Assembly: GCF_056746865.1 (NCBI RefSeq)
Contig: NZ_CM163382.1
Strand: one strand, 5' to 3'
DNA length: 64,000 nucleotides
The notes under the pieces are model-generated. The model made no database searches, had not been told where the DNA came from, and saw only the letters and a list, made by a program, of their open reading frames with translations. Each line of letters opens with the position of its first letter. Position 1 is the stretch's first letter. Position numbers and translations under genes: made by a program. This document shows, piece by piece, positions 1,847 through 63,262 of this stretch.

Positions 1847-3298
1847 TTAGCACAACGGACGTACAGCTTCGCGCATTCCTTTTTCGAGAATCACATCCAG
1901 GTCATTAGCCACCTGCTCGACCAGACCAGGCACTTGCGTCAGGTCCTGCTCCCAGTGGTCTTTTTCTGCCAAAACAATCGCTACCAGTTCCTGGGTACCG
2001 ATAACACGGTCACGATGCTGACTCCAGAGTTGCTGATAACGTTCCAGCCAGTGTGCATCGTCCTGTACCGGATATGTTTCTCCGTTACGCTCACCACGAT
2101 AGAACGCAATCAATGCCGCTAATGCGAAAGTAAGGCGCGCCGGAAGTGTGCCGTTTGCCTTCTGCCCTGCCAGCAGCTGCGGCAGGATGCGGGTGCGGAA
2201 CTTGGTCATACCGTTGAGCGCGATAGACAGCAGCTGATGCTTAATGTACGGGTTACGGAAACGCCCGGTGACTGCACTGGCGAAAGATTCCAGTTCATCA
2301 CGAGGCAAATCCAGTACCGGAATAATTTCTTCGTAGATGGCTTTTTCAACGAATGCGCAAATTTCAGCATCGTTCATCGCTTCACCTACGGTATCCAGCC
2401 CTGCCTGGAACGCCACCGGCACCAGCGCGGTGTGCGCACCGTTGAGGATTGCCACTTTGCGTTCTTTATACGGTTTAATATCGTCAACAATCAGCACGTT
2501 GAGCGGATATTTGTCCAGGCGCAGCTCAGTCGCTAAGGATTTCGGCCCCTGAATCACAAACAGGTAAAAGTGTTCAGCGGTGTCGAGGAAACCATCGTGA
2601 TAACCCAGTTCTTCTTCCAGTTTAGCCACTTCATCGCGCGGATAACCGGTAACGATACGGTCCACCAGCGTAGAACAGAAGCTGTTAGCCTGATCCAGCC
2701 ATTGAATAAATGCTTCTGGCAGTGCCCACTCTTGCGCATAGCGCAGCACCAGTTCACGCAACGCGTCGCCATTGTAGTCAATCAACTCACACGGAATGAT
2801 GATCCAACCTTTATCCAGCGCACCGTTGAAATGGCTAAAGCGTTCGAACAGCAGACGGGTCAGTTTTGCCGGATAGCTTACCGCTGGTGCGTCATCGAAT
2901 TTATCGCCCGCATGGTAGCTGATCCCCGCTTCGGTGGTGTTAGAGAAAACAAAGCGCATTTCCGGGTTGTGCGCCAGTTTCAGGAATTCATCGTATTCAC
3001 TGTAGACGCTGATTTCACGATTAACCGAGCGAATCAGACGCGCGTCGCTGACCGCTTCCCCCTTCTCATTCAGGCCACGGATAATGGTGGTGTACAGACC
3101 ATCCTGCGTGCTCAGTGACGGCGGGAATGAAGTTTCAATCGGACGAACAACGACCACGCCAGAATTCAGATCGGTGTGCTCATTCAGGAGATCGATTTGC
3201 CAGTCAACAAAGGCGCGCAGGAAGTTACCTTCACCAAACTGAATGATACGTTCTGGATACTGTGCACCGGGAAAATCGCGACGATTTAGTGTTTTCAC
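1847..3298 (-). CDS. uxaB: altronate oxidoreductase (tagaturonate reductase)
   Basis: 483-aa ORF recognised as UxaB (mannitol dehydrogenase family); synteny. Confidence 0.93.
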
Positions 3299-8878: not shown

Positions 8879-9994
8879 ATGGTTACGCCAGTAAGCATCA
8901 GCAATTACATATCTCTTCCTGATGATTTTCCCGTACGTAATATTGCACCACAGGTAAAAGAAGTTTTAAAGGATTTCATTGATGCACTCAGTACAATAAT
9001 ATGTGATGAAGAGTGGCGTACGTCTTTAAACATCAACTCAGCCACAAAAAAGATATTTAATAACCTTGACAACTTATCATATATTCAGAGGACTTCTTTT
9101 CGGGGTAACGACACGCTATACAATGAAAAGGTTCAGTTTAAACTCACTTATCCCGTCAAGAATGGAAGACACAAAGAAAATATTGAATTTCAGGTAGTAA
9201 TAAATTTAAGCCCTATTTATTTAGATAATTTCCGCCATGATGGGGAAATTAATATTTTTTGCGCTCCCAACCCAAAGCCTGTCACTATGGGGCGCGTATT
9301 TCAGACCGGCGTCGAGCGTGTACTCTTTCTGTTCCTGAATGACTTTATAGAACAATTTCCAATAATCAACCCTGGCGTTCCTATCAAAAGAGCGCATACG
9401 CCACATATTGAACCCCTGCATCCGGATCACCATACCGCTGCAGATTACTTACGCCAGTTTGATTTGCTTGTCCTGAATTTTATCTCTCGCGGTAATTTTG
9501 TCATACTCCCCCGATTATGGAATAACTCTGAGGTTCACAGATGGTTCGGGAATAAAGAACCTAACTTGCTCACCGCTATTCTCGACATAACGGACAGCGA
9601 ATTAAAAGAGGATTTATTGCAAAGTCTGATGGATTCACTAGGTTCTAACAAACATGTACTACCCGAAGTCTGCATCTGCTTTTTATCCCTTTTAGCAGAA
9701 CAAGATTTTCCACATTTTCAGGACTTGTTTTTATTTTTCGCCAATATGTTATTGCACTATCACCAATTTATGAATCCCAATGAAAGTGATTTGATTGACG
9801 TGTTGATGCCAGCATCATTAAGTGATGATAAAATTATCAAACATATGGCGCGCAAGACCCTCAAACTTTTTGTAAAAAATGAAACGCCGCCAAAAGTTAC
9901 TCATGAAGACCTGGTGAAAAACAGGCCTCGCTCCCCTGTCAGACCACCTATACCCGCAACCTCCAAAACGCCAGACCTCCCTGAACGTCATTAA
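8879..9994 (+). CDS. yneK: uncharacterised protein YneK
   Basis: 371-aa ORF; markedly AT-rich compared with neighbouring genes; no recognisable catalytic motif. Confidence 0.8.
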   Translation: MVTPVSISNYISLPDDFPVRNIAPQVKEVLKDFIDALSTIICDEEWRTSLNINSATKKIFNNLDNLSYIQRTSFRGNDTLYNEKVQFKLTYPVKNGRHKENIEFQVVINLSPIYLDNFRHDGEINIFCAPNPKPVTMGRVFQTGVERVLFLFLNDFIEQFPIINPGVPIKRAHTPHIEPLHPDHHTAADYLRQFDLLVLNFISRGNFVILPRLWNNSEVHRWFGNKEPNLLTAILDITDSELKEDLLQSLMDSLGSNKHVLPEVCICFLSLLAEQDFPHFQDLFLFFANMLLHYHQFMNPNESDLIDVLMPASLSDDKIIKHMARKTLKLFVKNETPPKVTHEDLVKNRPRSPVRPPIPATSKTPDLPERH

Positions 9995-15635: not shown

Positions 15636-15764
15636 TTTAAGTCGAACACAATAAAAATTTAATTCAGCCTTCGTTTAGGTTACCTCTGCTAATATCTTTC
15701 TCATTGAGATGAAAATTAAGGTAAGCGAGGAAACACACCACACCATAAACGGAGGCAAATAATG

Positions 15765-15769
15765 CTGGG
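15765..15769. repeat. IS2 target-site duplication, left copy (CTGGG)
   Basis: 5-bp direct repeat flanking the element. Confidence 0.85.
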
Positions 15770-15860
15770 TAGACTGGCCCCCTGAATCTCCAGACAACCA
15801 ATATCACTTAAATAAGTGATAGTCTTAATACTAGTTTTTAGACTAGTCATTGGAGAGCAG

Positions 15861-16226
15861 ATGATTGATGTCTTAGGACCGGAGAAACGCAGACGGCGTA
15901 CTACACAGGAAAAGATCGCTATTGTTCAGCAGAGTTTTGAACCGGGAATGACGGTCTCCCTTGTTGCCCGGCAACACGGTGTGGCAGCCAGCCAGTTATT
16001 TCTCTGGCGCAAGCAATACCAGGAGGGAAGTCTTACTGCTGTGGCCGCAGGAGAGCAGGTCGTTCCTGCCTCTGAACTTGCTGCTGCCATGAAGCAGATT
16101 AAAGAACTCCAGCGCCTGCTCGGCAAAAAAACGATGGAAAATGAACTCCTTAAAGAAGCCGTTGAATACGGGCGTGCAAAAAAGTGGATAGCGCACGCGC
16201 CCTTATTGCCCGGGGATGGGGAGTAA
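15861..16226 (+). CDS. insC: IS2 transposase OrfA (InsC)
   Basis: Translation [56 protein letters not shown]... with HTH; 121 aa from the internal ATG. Confidence 0.93.
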
Positions 16227-17089
16227 GCTTAGTCAGCCGTTGTCTCCGGGTGTCGCGTGCGCAGTTGCACGTCATTCTCAGACGAACCGATGACTGGAAA
16301 GATGGTCGCCGCAGCCGTCACTCAGATGATACGGATGTGCTTCTCCGTATACACCATGTTATCGGAGAGCTGCCCACGTATGGTTATCGTCGGGTATGGG
16401 CGCTGCTTCGCAGACAGGCCGAACTTGATGGTATGCCTGCGATCAATGCCAAACGTGTTTACCGGATCATGCGCCAGAATGCGCTGTTGCTTGAGCGAAA
16501 AACCGCTGTACCGCCATCGAAACGGGCACATACTGGCAAAGTGGCCGTGAAAGAAAGCAATCAACGATGGTGCTCTGACGGGTTCGAGTTCCGCTGTGAT
16601 AACGGAGAAAAACTGCGAGTCACGTTCGCGCTGGACTGCTGTGACCGTGAGGCACTGCACTGGGCAGTCACTACGGGCGGCTTCGACAGTGAAACAGTAC
16701 AGGACGTAATGCTGGGAGCGGTGGAACGCCGCTTCGGCAACGAGCTTCCGGCGTCTCCAGTAGAGTGGCTGACGGATAATGGTTCATGCTACCGGGCTAA
16801 TGAAACACGGCAGTTTGCCCGGATGTTGGGGCTTGAACCGAAGAACACGGCGGTGCGGAGTCCGGAGAGTAACGGCATAGCAGAGAGCTTCGTGAAAACG
16901 ATAAAGCGTGACTACATCAGTATCATGCCTAAACCAGACGGGTTAACGGCAGCAAAGAACCTTGCAGAGGCGTTCGAGCATTATAACGAATGGCATCCGC
17001 ATAGTGCACTGGGTTATCGCTCGCCACGGGAATATCTACGGCAGCGGGCCAGTAATGGGTTAAGTGATAACAGGTGTCTGGAAATATAG
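16184..17089 (+). CDS. insD: IS2 transposase OrfB (InsD), DDE catalytic domain; probably expressed as an OrfAB fusion by -1 frameshift
   Basis: 301-aa ORF in the -1 frame relative to insC, overlapping its 3' end; integrase-like core. Confidence 0.93.
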
Positions 17090-17100
17090 GGGCAAATCCA

Positions 17101-17105
17101 CTGGG
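17101..17105. repeat. IS2 target-site duplication, right copy (CTGGG)
   Basis: Identical to 15765-15769. Confidence 0.85.
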
Positions 17106-17220
17106 TAATATGAATGTTTTTATGGCCGTACTGGGAATAATTTTATTTTCTGGTTTTCTGGCCGCGTATTTCAGCCACAAATGGGATGACTAATGAACGG
17201 AGATAATCCCTCACCTAACC

Positions 17221-17259
17221 GGCCCCTTGTTACAGTTGTGTACAAGGGGCCTGATTTTT
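17221..17259 (+). terminator. intrinsic terminator of mgtS
   Basis: Perfect 10-bp stem GGCCCCTTGT / ACAAGGGGCC with an 11-nt loop, followed by TGATTTTT. Confidence 0.75.
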
Positions 17260-17267
17260 ATGACGGC

Positions 17268-17365
17268 AAAAAAAAACCGCCAGTAAACCGGCGGTGAATG
17301 CTTGCATGGATAGATTTGTGTTTTGCTTTTACGCTAACAGGCATTTTCCTGCACTGATAACGGAT
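17268..17365 (-). ncRNA. mgrR: putative PhoP-regulated sRNA MgrR (about 98 nt)
   Basis: Minus-strand hairpin CCGCCGG-UUUA-CUGGCGG followed by U9 (3' end near 17268); candidate -10 TACTGT (plus 17373-17378) puts the 5' end near 17365, giving about 98 nt; PhoP box upstream; location between mgtS and dgcZ. Boundaries are approximate. Confidence 0.5.
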
Positions 17366-17400
17366 CGTTGACACAGTAGCATCAGTTTTCTCAATGAATG

Positions 17401-17418
17401 TTAAACGGAGCTTAAACT
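17401..17418 (-). promoter_or_regulatory. PhoP box direct repeat (GTTTAA-N5-GTTTAA)
   Basis: The minus strand reads GAGTTTAAGCTCCGTTTAAC, matching the (T/G)GTTTA-N5-(T/G)GTTTA consensus; it overlaps the dgcZ stop codon and lies upstream of the putative mgrR. Confidence 0.55.
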
Positions 17419-18302
17419 CGGTTAATCACATTTTGTTCGTCAATAAACATACAGCGATTTCTTCCGGTTTGCTTACCCTCATACATTGCCCGGTCCGCTC
17501 TTCCAATGACCACATCCAGAGGTTCTTCAGGAAATGCGCGACTCACACCTGCAGTCACGGTAATGTTGATATGCCCTTCAGAATGTGTGATGGCATGGTT
17601 ATCGACTAACTGGCAAATTCTGATACCTGCACGACATGCTTCTTCATCATTAGCCGCTTTGACAATAATGATAAATTCTTCGCCACCGTAGCGATAAACC
17701 GTTTCGTAATCGCGCGTCCAACTGGCTAAGTAAGTTGCCAGGGTGCGTAATACTACATCGCCGATTAAATGCCCGTAGGTATCATTAACCAATTTAAATC
17801 GGTCAATATCCAACAACATTAAATAAAGATTCAGAGGCTCAGCGTTGCGTAACTGATGATCAAAGGATTCATCAAGAACCCGACGACCCGGCAATCCCGT
17901 CAAAACATCCATATTGCTACGGATCGTCAGCAAATAAATTTTGTAATCGGTTAATGCCGCAGTAAAAGAAAGCAACCCTTCCTGAAAGGCGTCGAAATGC
18001 GCGTCCTGCCAGTGATTTTCAACAATAGCCAACATTAATTCCCGACCACAGTTATGCATATGTTGATGGGCAGAATCCATTAGCCGAACGTAAGGTAATT
18101 CATCGTTATCGAGTGGTCCCAGATGATCAATCCACCGACCAAACTGGCACAGTCCATAAGAATGGTTATCCGTTATTTCTGGCTTACTGGCATCTCTCGC
18201 GACCACGCTGTGAAACATACTCACCAGCCACTGGTAGTGGGCATCGATAGCCTTATTGAGATTTAACAAGATGGCATCAATTTCCGTTGTCTTCTTGATC
18301 AT
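17412..18302 (-). CDS. dgcZ: zinc-sensing diguanylate cyclase DgcZ
   Basis: Start trimmed to MIKKTTEID (296 aa); C-terminal GGDEF (RYGGEEFII) and N-terminal zinc-binding-like region with His/Cys residues; corresponds to ydeH. Confidence 0.9.
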   Translation of the reverse strand: MIKKTTEIDAILLNLNKAIDAHYQWLVSMFHSVVARDASKPEITDNHSYGLCQFGRWIDHLGPLDNDELPYVRLMDSAHQHMHNCGRELMLAIVENHWQDAHFDAFQEGLLSFTAALTDYKIYLLTIRSNMDVLTGLPGRRVLDESFDHQLRNAEPLNLYLMLLDIDRFKLVNDTYGHLIGDVVLRTLATYLASWTRDYETVYRYGGEEFIIIVKAANDEEACRAGIRICQLVDNHAITHSEGHINITVTAGVSRAFPEEPLDVVIGRADRAMYEGKQTGRNRCMFIDEQNVINRV

Positions 18303-18556
18303 TGCCACTCCTTTTTCACAGTTCCTTGTGCGCGCTATTCTAACGAGAGAAAAGCAAAATTACGTCAATATTTTCATAGAAATCCGAAGTTATGAGTCAT
18401 CTCTGAGATAACATTGTGATTTGAAACAAAATCAGCAGATAAAAAAGTGTTTAATTCTGTAAATTAAGCCTGCATTATCGCAATTAAAAGGATGACAAAT
18501 AGCATAAACCAATACCCTAATGGCCCAGTAGTTCAGGCCATCAGGCTCATTTATTT

Positions 18557-18949
18557 TTATTTCTGCAAATGAGTGACCCGAACGACGGCCGGCGCGCTTT
18601 TCTTATCCAGACTGCCGCTAATGTTGATCATCTGGTCCGGCTGAACTTCTCGTCCATCAAAGACTGCCGCAGGAATAACAACATTAATTTCACCGCTCTT
18701 ATCGCGAAAAACGTAACGGTCCTCTCCTTTGTGAGAAATCAAATTACCGCGTAGTGAAACCGAAGCGCCATCATGCATGGTTTTTGCGAAATCTACGGTC
18801 ATTTTTTTTGCATCATCGGTTCCGCGATAGCCATCTTCTATTGCATGAGGCGGCGGTGGCGCTGCATCCTGTTTTAAACCGCCCTGGTCATCTGCCAACG
18901 CATAAGGCATGACAAGAAAACTTGCTAATACAATGGCCTGAAATTTCAT
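18557..18949 (-). CDS. ydeI: periplasmic OB-fold (YgiW/BOF family) stress protein
   Basis: 130-aa ORF with an N-terminal signal peptide ([19 protein letters not shown]). Confidence 0.85.
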
Positions 18950-19313
18950 ACTGACTCCTTAATTGCGTTTGGTTTGACTTATTAAGTCTGGTTGCTATTT
19001 TTATAATTGACAAATAAGAATACTGCCAATTGTTATAAGGCATTTAAAATCAGGCAACTAGCTGTCAAATATTAAGAGAATTTAACTCACTAAAGTAAGA
19101 AGAAGATTAAAGAGTCTTAAACATATTTCAGAACAATCAGATTTATAAATTTGAAAATTATTATAACGGAAGGGTATACAAAAAAAGTAATTTTGCTGGC
19201 GACTGCGAAACGGCATTCGCATTAGCGGTGAAGTTTGCCCCCACCCAGCTGCTGCAATTACTGCTCTAACCAGGCTGGCCTGGCGATATCTCCAGGCCAG
19301 CCATTGGTGGTGT

Positions 19314-21359
19314 TTATATGTTCAAGCCACGATGTTGCAGCATCGGCATAATCTGAGGTGCCTTACCGCGCCATTGTCGATACAGGCGTTCCAGATCTTC
19401 GCTGTTACCTCTGGAAAGAATCGCCTCGCGAAAACGCCGCCCATTTTCACGCGTTAATCCGCCCTGCTCAACAAACCACTGGTAACCATCATCGGCCAAC
19501 ATTTGCGTCCACAGATAAGCGTAATAACCTGCGGCATATCCGCCACCAAAAATATGGGCGAAATAACTGCTGCGATAGCGTGGCGGTATAGCGGGAAGAT
19601 CCATATTTTCTGCCACCAGCGCCCGCAATTCGAAATCATCGACATCCTGCATTGCTTCGTTTTCTTCCAGGCAATGCCAGCGCATATCGAGAAGTGCGGC
19701 GCTAAGCAGTTCGCTCATCTCATACCCTTTATTGAACAGGCTGGCATTACGCATTTTCTGTTGCAGTTCGTCAGGCATTGCTGCCCCGCTCTGATAATGC
19801 CGGGCGTAGCGAGCGAATACCTGCGGATGCGTTGCCCAGTGTTCGTTGATTTGCGACGGAAATTCGACAAAATCACGCGGCGTGTTGGTGCCGGAAAGTG
19901 TGGCATAACGCTGGCGGGCAAAGAGGCCGTGCAACGTATGACCAAATTCATGGAATAAGGTTATGACATCATCCCAGAGTAACAACGCAGGCTCACCGGC
20001 AGCGGGTTTCTGATAATTGCAGACGTTATAAATTACCGGATGCGTTTCATTAAGCGTTGATTGCTCAACAAAATTGCCCATCCATGCACCGCCGCTTTTT
20101 GAATCACGGGCGAAGAAATCACCGTAAAATAACGCCAGCCCCACGCCATTATGATCAAAAATTTCCCATACACGAACGTCAGGATGGTAGACAGGAATAT
20201 CAAAACGTTCGACAAACTTAATACCGAAGAGCTGATTCGCGGTCCAGAATACACCTTCATTCAACACCGTGTTTAATTCAAAATATGGCTTGAGCTGCGA
20301 TTCATCGAGATCGAATTTCTCACGTCTTACCTGCTCGGCATAAAATGCCCAGTCCCACGGCTGCGCGCTAAACCCGCCCTGCTGCTTATCGATAACCGCC
20401 TGTATGGAGGCTAATTCATCGCTCGCACGTTGACGCGCCGCTGGAACAATTTCCCGCATAAAGTTGAGTGCTGCTTCTGGCGTTTTTGCCATCTGATCGG
20501 CGATTTTCCATGCGGCATAATGAGGGAAACCAAGCAGTTTCGCCTGCTGCGCGCGGATCTCCACCAGACGTTGAATGATAGCGCGGGTATCATTGGCATC
20601 ATTTTTTTCCGCTCGCGTCCAGCCCGCAGTGAACAGTTTTTCACGCGTCGCGCGATCGCGCAGTTCAGCAAGCGCTGGTTGCTGGGTGGTATTCAGCAAC
20701 GGAATCAGCCATTTGTTATCCAGACCTTTCTCGCGAGCCGCCTCTGCCGCCAGCGCAATCTCTTGCTCACTCATTCCTGCCAGCTGCGCGAAATCGTTCA
20801 CAACCAGACCGCCGGATTTATTTGCTGCCAGTAACCGCTGGTTAAACTGGCTGGTCAGGGTCGCAGCTTCTGTATTCAGGACTTTTAATTTTGCTTTATC
20901 AGCTTGTGCAAGTTTGGCTCCGGCAAGGACAAAACGTTGATGAATGACCTCCACCAGGCGGATGGATTCACTATCAAGTCCCAGGGATTCACGGCGTTGC
21001 CAGACAGCATCTACCCGCGCGAATAATTCACCGTTCAGATAGATATCATTAGCCAGTTCCGCCAGTTCAGCGGAAAACTGTTCATCAAGACGCTGTAATT
21101 CATCATTAGTATGCGCCGCAGTCATCGCAAAAAAGACGCTGGTAACGCGGGTAAGTAATTCTCCGCTTTGTTCCAGTGCCAGAATAGTATTGTTGAAATC
21201 AGGTGTTTGCGGGTTAAGCGCGATGGCAGCAATTTCTGCCCGCTTTTGCTGCATTCCCTCATCGAATGCCGGGCGATAGTGATGATTGGCAATTTGATCA
21301 AAATGGGGAGCCAGATACGGCAGTGTGCTTTGCACAAGGAAAGGATTCATTGTTGTCAT
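19314..21359 (-). CDS. dcp: peptidyl-dipeptidase Dcp (M3 metallopeptidase)
   Basis: Start trimmed to MTTMNPFLVQ (681 aa); zinc motif HEFGHTLH present. Confidence 0.93.
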   Translation of the reverse strand: MTTMNPFLVQSTLPYLAPHFDQIANHHYRPAFDEGMQQKRAEIAAIALNPQTPDFNNTILALEQSGELLTRVTSVFFAMTAAHTNDELQRLDEQFSAELAELANDIYLNGELFARVDAVWQRRESLGLDSESIRLVEVIHQRFVLAGAKLAQADKAKLKVLNTEAATLTSQFNQRLLAANKSGGLVVNDFAQLAGMSEQEIALAAEAAREKGLDNKWLIPLLNTTQQPALAELRDRATREKLFTAGWTRAEKNDANDTRAIIQRLVEIRAQQAKLLGFPHYAAWKIADQMAKTPEAALNFMREIVPAARQRASDELASIQAVIDKQQGGFSAQPWDWAFYAEQVRREKFDLDESQLKPYFELNTVLNEGVFWTANQLFGIKFVERFDIPVYHPDVRVWEIFDHNGVGLALFYGDFFARDSKSGGAWMGNFVEQSTLNETHPVIYNVCNYQKPAAGEPALLLWDDVITLFHEFGHTLHGLFARQRYATLSGTNTPRDFVEFPSQINEHWATHPQVFARYARHYQSGAAMPDELQQKMRNASLFNKGYEMSELLSAALLDMRWHCLEENEAMQDVDDFELRALVAENMDLPAIPPRYRSSYFAHIFGGGYAAGYYAYLWTQMLADDGYQWFVEQGGLTRENGRRFREAILSRGNSEDLERLYRQWRGKAPQIMPMLQHRGLNI

Positions 21360-21495
21360 TTTCTTCTCCTGAACGCGAGGTGTTCCATAGCGTAGGCTTA
21401 CTGATAACGGAGTGCAATCTTGCAAACCAGTATTACCCGCTCTTAAGCATCACGTGCTATGTTATTGACACACAAAAGCGTTGAGGAACAGTGAG

Positions 21496-61888: not shown

Positions 61889-62086
61889 TGTTCTCTCACT
61901 TACTGCCTGGTTTGGTTATGCTCTGGGCGGGTGTTCCGTTGCCCTGTTAAAAGCGAGTAACAATATCCTACACACTTTTTTAACAAAAACTGAGACTAGT
62001 ACGACTTTTTGCGGCTCCAGGTTACTTCCCGTAGGATTCTTGCTTTAATAGCGGGATTAATTTCCACATATAAACAGGGATTGATC

Positions 62087-63262
62087 ATGCAAAAACTCAT
62101 TAACTCAGTGCAAAACTATGCCTGGGGCAGCAAAACGGCGTTGACTGAACTTTATGGTATGGAAAATCCGTCCAGCCAGCCGATGGCCGAGCTGTGGATG
62201 GGCGCACATCCAAAAAGCAGTTCACGAGTGCAGAATGCCGCCGGAGATATCGTTTCACTGCGTGATGTGATTGAGAGTAATAAATCGACTCTGCTCGGAG
62301 AGGCCGTTGCCAAACGCTTTGGCGAACTGCCTTTCCTGTTCAAAGTATTATGCGCAGCACAGCCGCTCTCCATTCAGGTTCATCCAAACAAACGCAATTC
62401 TGAAATCGGTTTTGCCAAAGAAAATGCCGCAGGTATTCCGATGGATGCCGCCGAGCGTAACTATAAAGATCCTAACCACAAGCCGGAGCTGGTTTTTGCG
62501 CTGACGCCTTTCCTTGCGATGAACGCGTTTCGTGAATTTTCCGAGATTGTCTCCCTACTCCAGCCAGTCGCAGGTGCACATCCGGCGATTGCTCACTTTT
62601 TACAACAGCCTGATGCCGAACGTTTAAGCGAACTGTTCGCCAGCCTGCTGAATATGCAGGGGGAAGAAAAATCCCGCGCGCTGGCGATTTTAAAATCGGC
62701 CCTTGACAGTCAGCAGGGTGAACCGTGGCAAACGATTCGTTTAATTTCTGAATTTTACCCGGATGACAGCGGTCTGTTCTCCCCGCTGTTGCTGAATGTG
62801 GTGAAATTGAATCCTGGCGAAGCGATGTTCCTGTTCGCTGAAACGCCGCACGCTTACCTGCAAGGCGTGGCGCTGGAAGTGATGGCGAACTCCGATAACG
62901 TGCTGCGTGCGGGTCTGACGCCTAAATACATTGATATTCCGGAACTGGTTGCCAATGTGAAGTTCGAAGCCAAACCGGCTAACCAGTTGTTGACCCAGCC
63001 GGTGAAACAAGGTGCAGAACTGGACTTCCCGATTCCTGTGGATGATTTTGCCTTCTCGCTGCATGACCTTAGTGATAAAGAAACCACCATCAGCCAGCAG
63101 AGTGCCGCCATTTTGTTCTGCGTCGAAGGCGATGCAACGCTGTGGAAAGGTTCTCAGCAGTTACAGCTTAAACCGGGTGAATCAGCGTTTATTGCCGCCA
63201 ACGAATCACCGGTGACTGTCAAAGGCCACGGCCGTTTAGCGCGTGTTTACAACAAGCTGTAA
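62087..63262 (+). CDS. manA: mannose-6-phosphate isomerase
   Basis: Start at MQKLINSVQNYAWGS (391 aa); zinc-site motif QVHPNK present. Confidence 0.95.
   Translation: MQKLINSVQNYAWGSKTALTELYGMENPSSQPMAELWMGAHPKSSSRVQNAAGDIVSLRDVIESNKSTLLGEAVAKRFGELPFLFKVLCAAQPLSIQVHPNKRNSEIGFAKENAAGIPMDAAERNYKDPNHKPELVFALTPFLAMNAFREFSEIVSLLQPVAGAHPAIAHFLQQPDAERLSELFASLLNMQGEEKSRALAILKSALDSQQGEPWQTIRLISEFYPDDSGLFSPLLLNVVKLNPGEAMFLFAETPHAYLQGVALEVMANSDNVLRAGLTPKYIDIPELVANVKFEAKPANQLLTQPVKQGAELDFPIPVDDFAFSLHDLSDKETTISQQSAAILFCVEGDATLWKGSQQLQLKPGESAFIAANESPVTVKGHGRLARVYNKL

What the first reader, a model, noticed from the sequence alone, without database searches (positions are those of the whole stretch)
17221..17418. 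Convergent terminators and a PhoP box define a putative MgrR sRNA between mgtS and dgcZ
Two back-to-back intrinsic terminators are present: a plus-strand one for mgtS (17221-17259) and a minus-strand one with a U9 tail (3' end near 17268). Upstream on the minus strand there is a near-perfect PhoP direct repeat GTTTAA-GCTCC-GTTTAA (17401-17418) overlapping the dgcZ stop codon. With a candidate -10 (TACTGT) the transcript would be about 98 nt, the reported size of MgrR. The sRNA promoter is therefore embedded in the 3' end of the dgcZ coding sequence. It is intact here although the neighbouring PhoP-regulated mgtS is disrupted.
Basis: partly seen in the sequence, partly recalled or inferred. Interest (0 to 1): 0.35.

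Follow-up and report, generated by a model that had tools for sequence, protein, structure and literature searches.

The report
Known PhoP-regulated small RNA MgrR

Summary
The feature is real and already known. Window 17269..17366 (minus strand) is mgrR: 96 of 98 bases match the annotated E. coli K-12 gene b4698, and the Rfam family STnc560 matches at 281 bits (threshold 55).

Three details need correcting.
- **PhoP box.** Across 63 distinct promoter sequences from about 15 enterobacterial genera, the conserved box is cGTTTA-acatt-cATTGA (17407..17391). It sits 12 nt upstream of an extended -10 (TGcTACTGT), the same geometry as the neighbouring mgtS promoter.
- **Overlap with dgcZ.** The half-site made by the last dgcZ codon and stop codon is not conserved outside Escherichia. 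The core promoter is intergenic, not inside dgcZ.
- **The "mgtS terminator".** This hairpin lies inside mgtT, a published 34-aa gene. mgtT overlaps the mgrR 3' end by 29 nt.

mgtS is split by an IS2 (15770..17100, CTGGG target duplication). None of 5,426 complete E. coli genomes has that insertion.

Novelty: none for MgrR itself. Interest is low.

The parts
17269..17366 (-). mgrR sRNA gene. It is 98 nt by the K-12 annotation; a ninth T at 17268 could make the RNA 99 nt.
   Evidence: K-12 b4698 maps here. 96 of 98 bases are identical: U4 is C, and the base after U8 is T instead of C. Rfam RF01407 matches 17187..17400 at 281 bits.
17332..17362 (-). 5' stem-loop of MgrR (nt 5-35)
   Evidence: Present in the minimum-free-energy fold. 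The homologues from other genera mostly fold a 5' stem-loop of different sequence here (35 of 63 by a strict criterion).
17315..17330 (-). A-rich (ARN)-type motif AAAAGCAAAACACAAA (nt 37-52), the proposed site for the distal face of Hfq
   Evidence: Predicted single-stranded. Described as an (ARN)5 motif of a Class II sRNA in PMC6239178.
17299..17312 (-). Seed UAUCCAUGCAAGCA (nt 55-68), which pairs with eptB, ygdQ and other mRNAs
   Evidence: Identical to K-12. The pairing region U55-A68 is stated in PMC6239178. It lies within the core shared by 65 enterobacterial homologues, although the 18-mer was the search pattern, so its invariance is by construction.
17268..17295 (-). Intrinsic terminator of MgrR: hairpin 17295..17276 and a U9 run 17276..17268. 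The U tail binds the proximal face of Hfq.
   Evidence: Terminator scan, fold. All 7 pairs are kept in 34 aligned homologues, one of them with compensatory changes.
17373..17381 (-). Extended -10 element TGcTACTGT (-15 to -7)
   Evidence: Used as the gapless alignment anchor: TG/GGnTAnnnT is found at this distance in 63 distinct promoter sequences. No -35 hexamer is present, and the sigma-70 scan finds no site.
17391..17407 (-). Conserved PhoP box cGTTTA-acatt-cATTGA (-41 to -25). This is the probable working PhoP site.
   Evidence: 1.63 and 1.30 bits per column in the two half-sites, against 0.13-0.39 in the flanks, with no gaps across about 15 genera. The geometry matches the mgtS promoter. 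The composite motif occurs once in the window against 0.04 expected.
17413..17418 (-). Extra upstream half-site aGTTTA (-52 to -47), in phase with the box (11 bp). Its GTTTAA is the last dgcZ codon GTT plus the stop TAA.
Evidence: Read from the sequence. It is not conserved outside Escherichia (0.21 bits).
17412..18302 (-). dgcZ (diguanylate cyclase). The stop codon is at 17414..17412, 45 nt upstream of the mgrR start, with no terminator in between.
   Evidence: ORF list, K-12 and 118UI annotation, terminator scan.
17193..17297 (+). mgtT, a 34-aa small-protein gene. Its ATG overlaps the mgtS stop (TAATG). It runs through the plus-strand hairpin and overlaps the mgrR 3' end by 29 nt; its stop TGA is at 17295-17297.
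   Evidence: ORF. K-12 b4775 and RefSeq annotation. The protein was detected, and an mgtS-mgtT operon dependent on PhoQP was reported.
17221..17259 (+). Plus-strand terminator-like hairpin (17221..17251) plus U5 tract, convergent with the mgrR terminator. It lies inside mgtT.
   Evidence: Fold. Also drawn as a helix in the Rfam alignment.
17101..17193 (+). mgtS 3' fragment (codons 2-31 and stop), cut off from its start codon, ribosome-binding site and promoter
   Evidence: Alignment to K-12 breaks at CCCAG|TGGATTT; sequence.
15770..17100 (+). IS2 copy (1331 bp) in the same orientation as mgtS. The target duplication CTGGG is at 15765-15769 and 17101-17105.
   Evidence: 95.8% identical over the full length to K-12 IS2A. 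Junctions are shown.
15662..15695 (+). mgtS promoter, left of the IS2: PhoP box ATTCA-N6-GTTTA, then N9, then TGcTAATAT
   Evidence: Read from the sequence. Conserved across genera with the same spacing as the mgrR promoter.

Best explanation
Window 17269..17366 (minus strand) is the gene for MgrR, the Hfq-dependent small RNA of the PhoQ/PhoP low-magnesium regulon.

**Transcription (partly inferred).** Phosphorylated PhoP binds the direct repeat cGTTTA-N5-cATTGA at -41 to -25. This takes the place of the missing -35 element. RNA polymerase uses the extended -10 TGcTACTGT and starts at G17366.

**The RNA.** Transcription ends at the hairpin and U9 terminator, giving a 98-99 nt RNA. It has a 5' stem-loop, a single-stranded A-rich Hfq site, a single-stranded seed (UAUCCAUGCAAGCA) and a U tail.

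**Action (from the literature).** With Hfq, the seed pairs with mRNAs such as eptB, ygdQ and pitA and represses them.

**Shown versus inferred.**
- Shown here: identity, boundaries, sequence integrity, predicted structure, and promoter conservation and geometry.
- Taken from the literature: PhoP dependence, Hfq binding and the targets.
- Inferred: The IS2 insertion in mgtS lies on the far side of both terminators. It leaves the mgrR promoter, RNA body and terminator untouched.
For: **Identity**
- Rfam RF01407 (STnc560) matches at 281 bits against a threshold of 55, over its full model length. It is the only Rfam hit in the 64-kb window.
- K-12 annotates ncRNA mgrR at the collinear position and strand. 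96 of 98 bases are identical, and the 600 bp around it are 100% identical to many E. coli genomes.
- The predicted fold has the published architecture, z-score -2.6 (PMC6239178).

**Homologues**
- About 65 homologues from Escherichia, Salmonella, Citrobacter, Enterobacter, Lelliottia, Leclercia, Kosakonia, Phytobacter, Pluralibacter, Silvania, Yokenella and others share the core. The 63 distinct RNA sequences have predicted lengths of 92-103 nt, and 62 of them have a terminator.

**Promoter**
- Aligned without gaps on the -10, the conservation peaks are GTTTA at -40..-36 (59 of 63 exact) and RTTKA at -29..-25. The flanks are at background.
- The mgtS promoter in the same locus has the identical layout: half-site, N6, half-site, N9, TGnTAnnnT.
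- The composite motif occurs once in the window against 0.04 expected.
- There is no -35 element, consistent with dependence on an activator.

**Literature**
- mgrR and yneM (mgtS) are directly activated by PhoP (PMC3536696).
- PhoP boxes lie at the -35 region (PMC7667037).
Against: - No expression data exist for this strain, so activity is inferred from sequence identity.
- The primary paper that mapped the promoter (Moon and Gottesman 2009) could not be read. I could not check which repeat its authors called the PhoP box.
- The homologues are related by descent, so conservation is not a set of independent observations. The near-random flanking columns argue against simple lack of divergence.
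- The -10 columns are conserved partly by construction, because they were the alignment anchor.
Confidence: 0.93

Rival explanations
1. One reading: PhoP activates mgrR solely through the near-perfect repeat GTTTAA-GCTCC-GTTTAA at -51..-35. On this view the working promoter reaches into the end of the dgcZ coding sequence.
For: - It is an exact GTTTA-N6-GTTTA, expected 0.14 times per window.
- It matches the consensus better than the downstream pair does.
- It is in helical phase, 11 bp from the downstream half-site.
- PhoP boxes further upstream than -35 are reported for some promoters (PMC7667037).
Against: - The upstream half-site is at background conservation across genera, 0.21 bits per column.
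- It is altered within Escherichia: AGTTTT in L019, shifted in E. albertii.
- It coincides with a codon and a stop codon, so its presence has another explanation.
- It lies 23 nt from the -10. In the conserved arrangement, and in the mgtS promoter, the distance is 12 nt.
- In Salmonella and most of the other genera captured, dgcZ is not upstream at all, yet the promoter is conserved.
Confidence: 0.15
2. The RNA is not a primary transcript. It would be a processed 3' fragment of the dgcZ mRNA, which runs into the same terminator.
For: dgcZ is on the same strand and ends 45 nt upstream, with no terminator in between.
Against: - A complete activator-type promoter lies at the correct distance from the annotated 5' end.
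- That promoter is conserved in genera where dgcZ is not the upstream gene.
- The literature reports promoter fusions and PhoP dependence.
Confidence: 0.03
3. The hairpins and repeat are chance features of an intergenic region, and no functional sRNA is made.
For: None beyond the absence of expression data for this strain.
Against: - A 281-bit covariance-model match.
- Near identity to an experimentally characterised gene.
- Conservation across many genera.
Confidence: 0.01

Closest known systems
MgrR of Escherichia coli K-12 (b4698; NC_000913.3 1622817..1622914, minus strand)
   Same: Same locus (ydeE-mgtS-mgtT / mgrR-dgcZ), strand and length. The promoter from -65 to +3 is identical, as are the seed, the A-rich motif and the terminator stem. 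96 of 98 bases match.
   Different: Base 4 is C instead of U; C is the Rfam majority form. The U tract is followed by a further T, giving U9 instead of U8. The convergent mgtS gene is split by IS2 here and intact in K-12.
Rfam RF01407 'STnc560 Hfq binding RNA' (the name from the Salmonella Hfq co-purification screen)
   Same: Full-length match at 281 bits. All helices drawn by the model are present.
   Different: The 214-nt model is more than twice the length of the RNA. It starts 34 nt upstream of the transcription start. It runs 82 nt past the 3' end, through the antisense of the mgtT/mgtS hairpin and into the end of mgtS. Its ends are therefore not the ends of the sRNA.
Canonical PhoP-activated promoters (direct repeat (T/G)GTTTA-N5-(T/G)GTTTA replacing the -35), such as the neighbouring mgtS promoter
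   Same: Direct repeat on the sense strand with 11-bp periodicity. Its proximal edge is 12 nt from an extended -10, and there is no -35 hexamer. The layout is identical to the mgtS promoter in this window.
   Different: In mgrR the distal half-site is the exact one and the proximal one is degenerate (ATTGA). In mgtS it is the reverse. E. coli mgrR also has a third in-phase half-site upstream.
3'-end sRNAs with their own promoter inside or at the end of the upstream gene and a shared terminator (for example DapZ, MicL; recalled from the literature, not tested here)
   Same: Same strand as the upstream gene dgcZ. The promoter abuts the stop codon, and there is no intervening terminator, so the terminator is probably shared.
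   Different: The conserved core promoter is intergenic. The association with dgcZ is limited to Escherichia and, at a greater distance, Citrobacter. MgrR is therefore an independent gene that happens to sit close to dgcZ.

Membership tests
MgrR / Rfam RF01407 (STnc560) | Covariance-model score at or above the curated gathering threshold (55 bits) | tested here: met
   281.1 bits, E = 5e-65, model positions 1-214 of 214. It is the only Rfam hit in the window.
MgrR / Rfam RF01407 (STnc560) | Collinear with the annotated mgrR of E. coli K-12, on the same strand | tested here: met
   K-12 mgrR 1622817..1622914 (minus) aligns to window 17269..17366 (minus) with 96 of 98 bases identical.
MgrR / Rfam RF01407 (STnc560) | Seed region U55-A68 that pairs with eptB and ygdQ | tested here: met
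   UAUCCAUGCAAGCA is identical to K-12 and predicted mostly unpaired. The region is defined in PMC6239178. Pairing itself was not tested.
MgrR / Rfam RF01407 (STnc560) | Hfq-binding modules of a Class II sRNA: internal A-rich (ARN) motif plus an intrinsic terminator with a U tail | tested here: met
   The sequence has AAAAGCAAAACACAAA and an 8-bp hairpin followed by U9. Hfq binding itself cannot be tested with these tools.
MgrR / Rfam RF01407 (STnc560) | Transcript of about 98 nt that depends on PhoP/PhoQ and low Mg2+ | not testable with these tools
   Needs a Northern blot or RNA-seq in this strain. The literature shows it for K-12.
PhoP-activated promoter | Direct repeat of (T/G)GTTTA with 11-bp periodicity on the sense strand at the -35 region | tested here: met
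   cGTTTA-acatt-cATTGA lies at -41..-25. It is conserved across about 15 genera. The position criterion comes from PMC7667037.
PhoP-activated promoter | No recognisable -35 hexamer; -10 at a fixed distance from the box | tested here: met
   The sigma-70 consensus scan finds no site in 16500..18500. There are 12 nt between the box and TAnnnT in every homologue and in the mgtS promoter.
PhoP-activated promoter | Physical binding of PhoP and loss of transcription in a phoP mutant | not testable with these tools
   Direct activation is stated in the literature for K-12 mgrR. The paper with the site mapping could not be read.
   The conserved box, -10 and start site (17407..17366) all lie downstream of the dgcZ stop codon (17414..17412). 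Only a non-conserved extra half-site overlaps the last codon and stop.

The most novel reading that the evidence does not exclude
In E. coli the mgrR promoter carries three in-phase PhoP half-sites: aGTTTA at -52, cGTTTA at -41 and cATTGA at -30. The most upstream one is formed by the last codon and stop codon of dgcZ. This gives two overlapping PhoP boxes. The extra site could raise PhoP occupancy and help explain why MgrR is induced at only moderately low Mg2+. It would also tie the evolution of the dgcZ C-terminus and stop codon to sRNA regulation. In one Escherichia lineage (L019) the stop codon is lost and the whole box lies inside dgcZ.
Probability: 0.2. Interest if true: 0.3.

Novelty: already known. 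Interest (0 to 1): 0.1.

Why it matters
For MgrR itself it matters little. The gene, its regulator, its Hfq binding and its targets are published, and the copy here is essentially the common E. coli allele.

There are three modest points of value:
- The Rfam family ends and the best-scoring PhoP repeat are both misleading guides to the real sRNA boundaries and promoter. Comparison across genera gives a cleaner promoter model: half-site, N6, half-site, N9, TGnTAnnnT, shared with mgtS.
- The region between the two convergent PhoP-controlled genes is denser than it looks. mgtT is translated across both terminator hairpins and lies antisense to the MgrR 3' end.
- This strain has lost mgtS, the protein arm of the mgtS/mgrR pair, to an IS2 insertion not seen in 5,426 complete E. 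coli genomes. It keeps the RNA arm. According to the title of Yin et al. 2019 (cited), both arms act on the PitA phosphate transporter.

Tried and rejected
- **Primary papers.** I tried to read Moon and Gottesman 2009 (PMC2841474, PubMed 19889087), Yin et al. 2019 (PMC6351178) and Moon et al. 2013 (PMC3765083). None is held. The published drawing of the PhoP box could not be checked.
- **Literature searches.** Searches for 'mgrR' with 'PhoP box', and for 'STnc560' with 'MgrR', gave no statement on the site. A search for dgcZ/ydeH with mgrR gave nothing on co-transcription.
- **Promoter and terminator scans.** The sigma-70 scan found no promoter in 16500..18500. I read this as expected for an activator-dependent promoter without a -35, not as evidence against a promoter. 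The same scan missed the plus-strand hairpin because of a bulged base; folding recovered it.
- **Consensus structure.** RNAalifold on a MAFFT alignment of 34 homologues recovered only the terminator, because the 5' stem-loop differs in sequence between genera. Folding each RNA separately shows a 5' hairpin in most, 35 of 63 by a strict criterion. I do not claim covariation for that helix.
- **Source genome.** A look-up of the 39-aa IS2-mgtS fusion ORF found nothing on record.
- **IS2 in other genomes.** No complete E. coli genome has IS2 at this site. Records that appeared to cover the IS carry it elsewhere, for example between ydeI and ydeJ in strain MB56.
- **Coding potential of the RNA.** I rejected a small-peptide reading. 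The only minus-strand ORF across it (17258..17374) starts upstream of the transcription start.

Full report
**1. Is the observation in the sequence?**

Yes. On the plus strand, a 13-bp G+C-rich hairpin with one bulged base spans 17221..17251. It is followed by UGAUUUUUAU, so the U5 run ends at 17259. The simple terminator scan missed it because of the bulge.

On the minus strand, the scan finds the hairpin ACCGCCGG-TTTA-CTGGCGGT at 17295..17276, followed by nine T down to 17268.

Further upstream on the minus strand, the sequence reads GAGTTTAAGCTCCGTTTAACATTCATTGAGAAAACTGATGCTACTGTGTCAACGATCC.
- Its upstream GTTTAA is the last dgcZ codon (GTT, Val) plus the stop TAA at 17414..17412.
- TACTGT lies at 17378..17373.

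An exact GTTTA-N6-GTTTA is expected 0.14 times in a shuffled window and occurs twice. With one mismatch allowed, there are 8 matches against 4.0 expected, so that looser pattern is uninformative.

**2. What is it?**

It is mgrR.
- A scan of Rfam gives one match in the whole 64-kb window: RF01407 'STnc560 Hfq binding RNA' at 17187..17400 on the minus strand. The score is 281 bits against a threshold of 55, and the full model length is matched.
- The K-12 MG1655 record annotates, in the same gene order (ydeE, mgtS, mgtT on one strand; mgrR, dgcZ on the other), the ncRNA mgrR (b4698) at 1622817..1622914 on the minus strand, 98 nt.
- A gap-free alignment places this on window 17269..17366 (minus strand) with 96 of 98 identical bases. 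The differences are C for U at position 4, which is the Rfam majority form, and a T instead of C just after the U8 tail, giving U9.
- The 600 bp right of the IS2 are 100% identical to many complete E. coli genomes, such as strain 118UI.

The RNA folds into a 5' stem-loop (nt 5-35), a long unpaired middle and the terminator hairpin. The energy is -25.9 kcal/mol, z = -2.6. This is the architecture described for the 98-nt MgrR. The published features are an (ARN)5-like A-rich stretch, the pairing region U55-A68 and a U8 tail (PMC6239178). In window coordinates the seed UAUCCAUGCAAGCA is 17312..17299.

The literature held here states that MgrR is PhoP/PhoQ-dependent and Hfq-dependent. It also states that mgrR and yneM (mgtS) are directly activated by PhoP (PMC3536696).

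The Rfam model is 214 nt, more than twice the length of the RNA. It begins 34 nt upstream of the start site. It runs 82 nt past the 3' end, through the antisense of the plus-strand hairpin and into the end of mgtS. Its ends should not be read as the ends of the sRNA.

**3. The promoter, examined across genera**

One scan of the species-representative genome collection with the 18-mer CAAATCTATCCATGCAAG (MgrR nt 49-66) returned 73 loci. About 65 are true homologues with a terminator. They come from Escherichia, Salmonella, Citrobacter, Enterobacter, Lelliottia, Leclercia, Kosakonia, Phytobacter, Pluralibacter, Silvania, Yokenella, Huaxiibacter and others. The remainder are chance hits, plus two obviously mislabelled or contaminated contigs.

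I anchored the sequences on a TG/GGnTAnnnT element at the expected distance. The 63 distinct promoter sequences then align without a single gap. Information content per column:

| Region (relative to start) | Bits per column |
|---|---|
| Far upstream flank | 0.13 |
| Spacer next to the -10 | 0.39 |
| Half-site at -41..-36 | 1.63 |
| Half-site at -30..-25 | 1.30 |

- In the -41..-36 half-site, GTTTA is exact in 59 of 63 sequences.
- The -30..-25 half-site is ATTGA, GTTGA, ATTTA or GTTTA.

The conserved element is therefore cGTTTA-N5-(C/T)(A/G)TT(G/T)A, then 9 nt, then TGnTAnnnT, with the start 7 nt after the -10. In the window this is 17407..17391 for the box and 17381..17373 for the extended -10. 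The composite pattern occurs once in the window against 0.04 expected.

The mgtS promoter provides an internal comparison. It lies in the same locus and is controlled by the same regulator. Across genera it reads (A/G)TTCA-N6-GTTTA-N9-TGcTAnTAT, which is exactly the same layout. In the window it lies at 15662..15695.

A published summary places E. coli PhoP boxes at the -35 region (PMC7667037). The conserved pair spans -41..-25 and covers it. No -35 hexamer is present, as expected for a promoter that depends on an activator.

I conclude, with about 70-80% confidence, that the working PhoP box is the conserved downstream pair. It is degraded in another Escherichia lineage (AGTTTT in L019) and shifted in E. 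albertii. I could not read the 2009 paper that mapped the promoter, so I do not know which repeat it labels.

**4. Is the promoter inside dgcZ?**

Only marginally. The dgcZ stop codon is at 17414..17412. The conserved box, the -10 and the start site (17407..17366) all lie in the 45 nt after it.

The position of dgcZ relative to mgrR varies by genus:
- In Escherichia, dgcZ ends next to the promoter. In E. albertii it ends 11 nt further away.
- In Citrobacter, it ends 57-68 nt or more further upstream.
- In Salmonella and most of the other genera captured, it is not the upstream gene at all.
- In L019, the TAA has become TTA, so the dgcZ frame runs on to the TGA inside CATTGA. There the whole box is coding.

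No terminator separates dgcZ from mgrR. dgcZ transcripts therefore probably end at the mgrR terminator. This is inference.

**5.

The plus-strand hairpin called 'the mgtS terminator' lies inside mgtT.
- mgtT is a 34-codon gene at 17193..17297. Its ATG overlaps the mgtS stop (TAATG).
- Its frame runs through both hairpins, and its stop TGA (17295-17297) sits at the foot of the mgrR terminator stem.
- MgtT was found by ribosome profiling and confirmed by epitope tagging, at a lower level than MgtS (bioRxiv 10.1101/511675).
- It is reported as part of a PhoQP-dependent mgtS-mgtT operon, with no phenotype on deletion or overexpression (PMC11429745).
- mgtT overlaps mgrR by 29 nt (17269..17297), in antisense.
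- Outside Escherichia, only the first 20-30 codons are recognisable.

The hairpin may still stop a fraction of transcripts, but it cannot be a full stop for the operon.

**6. The neighbouring disruption**

mgtS is split after ATG CTG GG by a 1331-bp IS2 at 15770..17100.
- It is 95.8% identical to K-12 IS2A and lies in the same orientation as mgtS.
- It is flanked by the 5-bp duplication CTGGG at 15765-15769 and 17101-17105.
- The PhoP promoter, ribosome-binding site and start codon stay on the left. Codons 2-31 and mgtT stay on the right.
- None of 5,426 complete E. coli genomes has an IS at this site. Records that seemed to cover it carry an IS elsewhere, for example between ydeI and ydeJ in strain MB56.
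- The insertion lies 168 nt beyond the mgrR 3' end, on the other side of both hairpins. It does not touch mgrR.

**7. Mechanism**

Steps marked 'shown' rest on tool results here. The rest come from the literature or are inferred.
- Low Mg2+ activates PhoQ, which phosphorylates PhoP (literature).
- PhoP binds the direct repeat at -41..-25 and recruits RNA polymerase to the extended -10. The sequence and its conservation are shown; binding is inferred.
- Transcription starts at G17366 and ends after the hairpin and U tract at 17269/17268. The boundaries rest on the K-12 annotation and on homologue lengths of 92-103 nt.
- Hfq binds the U tail and the A-rich stretch. The seed pairs with eptB, ygdQ and pitA mRNAs and represses them (literature).

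**8. Comparison, novelty and verdict**

This is a member of a fully characterised family, and essentially the common E. coli allele. Every sequence-level defining feature I could test is met. Expression and binding cannot be tested here.

Novelty: already known. Interest: 0.1.

The most novel reading left open is that E. coli has acquired a third in-phase PhoP half-site from the dgcZ Val-stop codons, which would tune the sensitivity of the promoter. I give it a probability of about 0.2 and modest interest if true.

Noticed in passing
window 15770..17100 (junctions 15765-15769 and 17101-17105): An IS2 copy (1331 bp, 95.8% identical to K-12 IS2A) splits mgtS after its second codon, with a CTGGG target duplication. 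No complete E. coli genome of 5,426 has an IS at this site, while the flanks are 100% identical to strains such as 118UI. An in-frame GTG inside the IS2 end (17074) and the internal Met codon (17110) leave possible truncated or fused MgtS peptides.
   Followed up: partly
window 17193..17297 (+): mgtT, a published 34-aa small protein, is translated across both convergent terminator hairpins. It lies antisense to the last 29 nt of mgrR, and its stop codon sits at the foot of the mgrR terminator stem. Translation of mgtT could oppose formation of the plus-strand hairpin and modulate read-through towards mgrR. This is untested.
   Followed up: partly
window 63234..63249 (+): The only other exact GTTTA-N6-GTTTA in the window lies in the last codons of manA (ORF 62009..63262), about 115 nt upstream of the next ORF (start about 63364). 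No TAnnnT element lies 12 nt downstream, so it may be chance. Like the mgrR repeat, it overlaps the 3' end of a coding sequence.
   Followed up: no
L018 (Enterobacteriaceae bacterium RIT691), matches at 1440-1457 and 3034-3051 (-): Two MgrR-like copies lie about 1.6 kb apart with identical seed and terminator. Only one has the conserved PhoP box and extended -10 upstream, and mgtS lies next to the other copy.
   Followed up: no
L019 (Escherichia, GTDB species representative SCPM-O-B-8794), promoter region upstream of the match at 9940-9957 (-): The dgcZ stop codon TAA is TTA here. The reading frame therefore continues for seven codons to the TGA inside the proximal PhoP half-site (CATTGA), and in this lineage the whole mgrR PhoP box is coding sequence.
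   Followed up: partly
L003 (contig labelled Caldithrix sp. MAG) and L053 (labelled Chryseobacterium sp. 18061): Both contigs carry enterobacterial mgrR with mgtS. The L003 copy is identical to E. coli K-12 over the stretch held and also has mgtT. This points to contamination or mislabelling of these public assemblies.
   Followed up: no
window 17366..17412 (-): No terminator lies between the dgcZ stop codon and the mgrR start. dgcZ mRNA therefore probably carries the whole MgrR sequence in its 3' untranslated region and ends at the mgrR terminator.
   Followed up: no
window about 18950..19310, between ydeI (18557..18949) and dcp (19314..21425): ydeJ, present between ydeI and dcp in K-12, is absent here, as in strain 118UI, which keeps only an 81-nt remnant. 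The distance from dgcZ to manA is also about 20 kb shorter than in K-12. From memory, that is consistent with absence of the Qin prophage.
   Followed up: no
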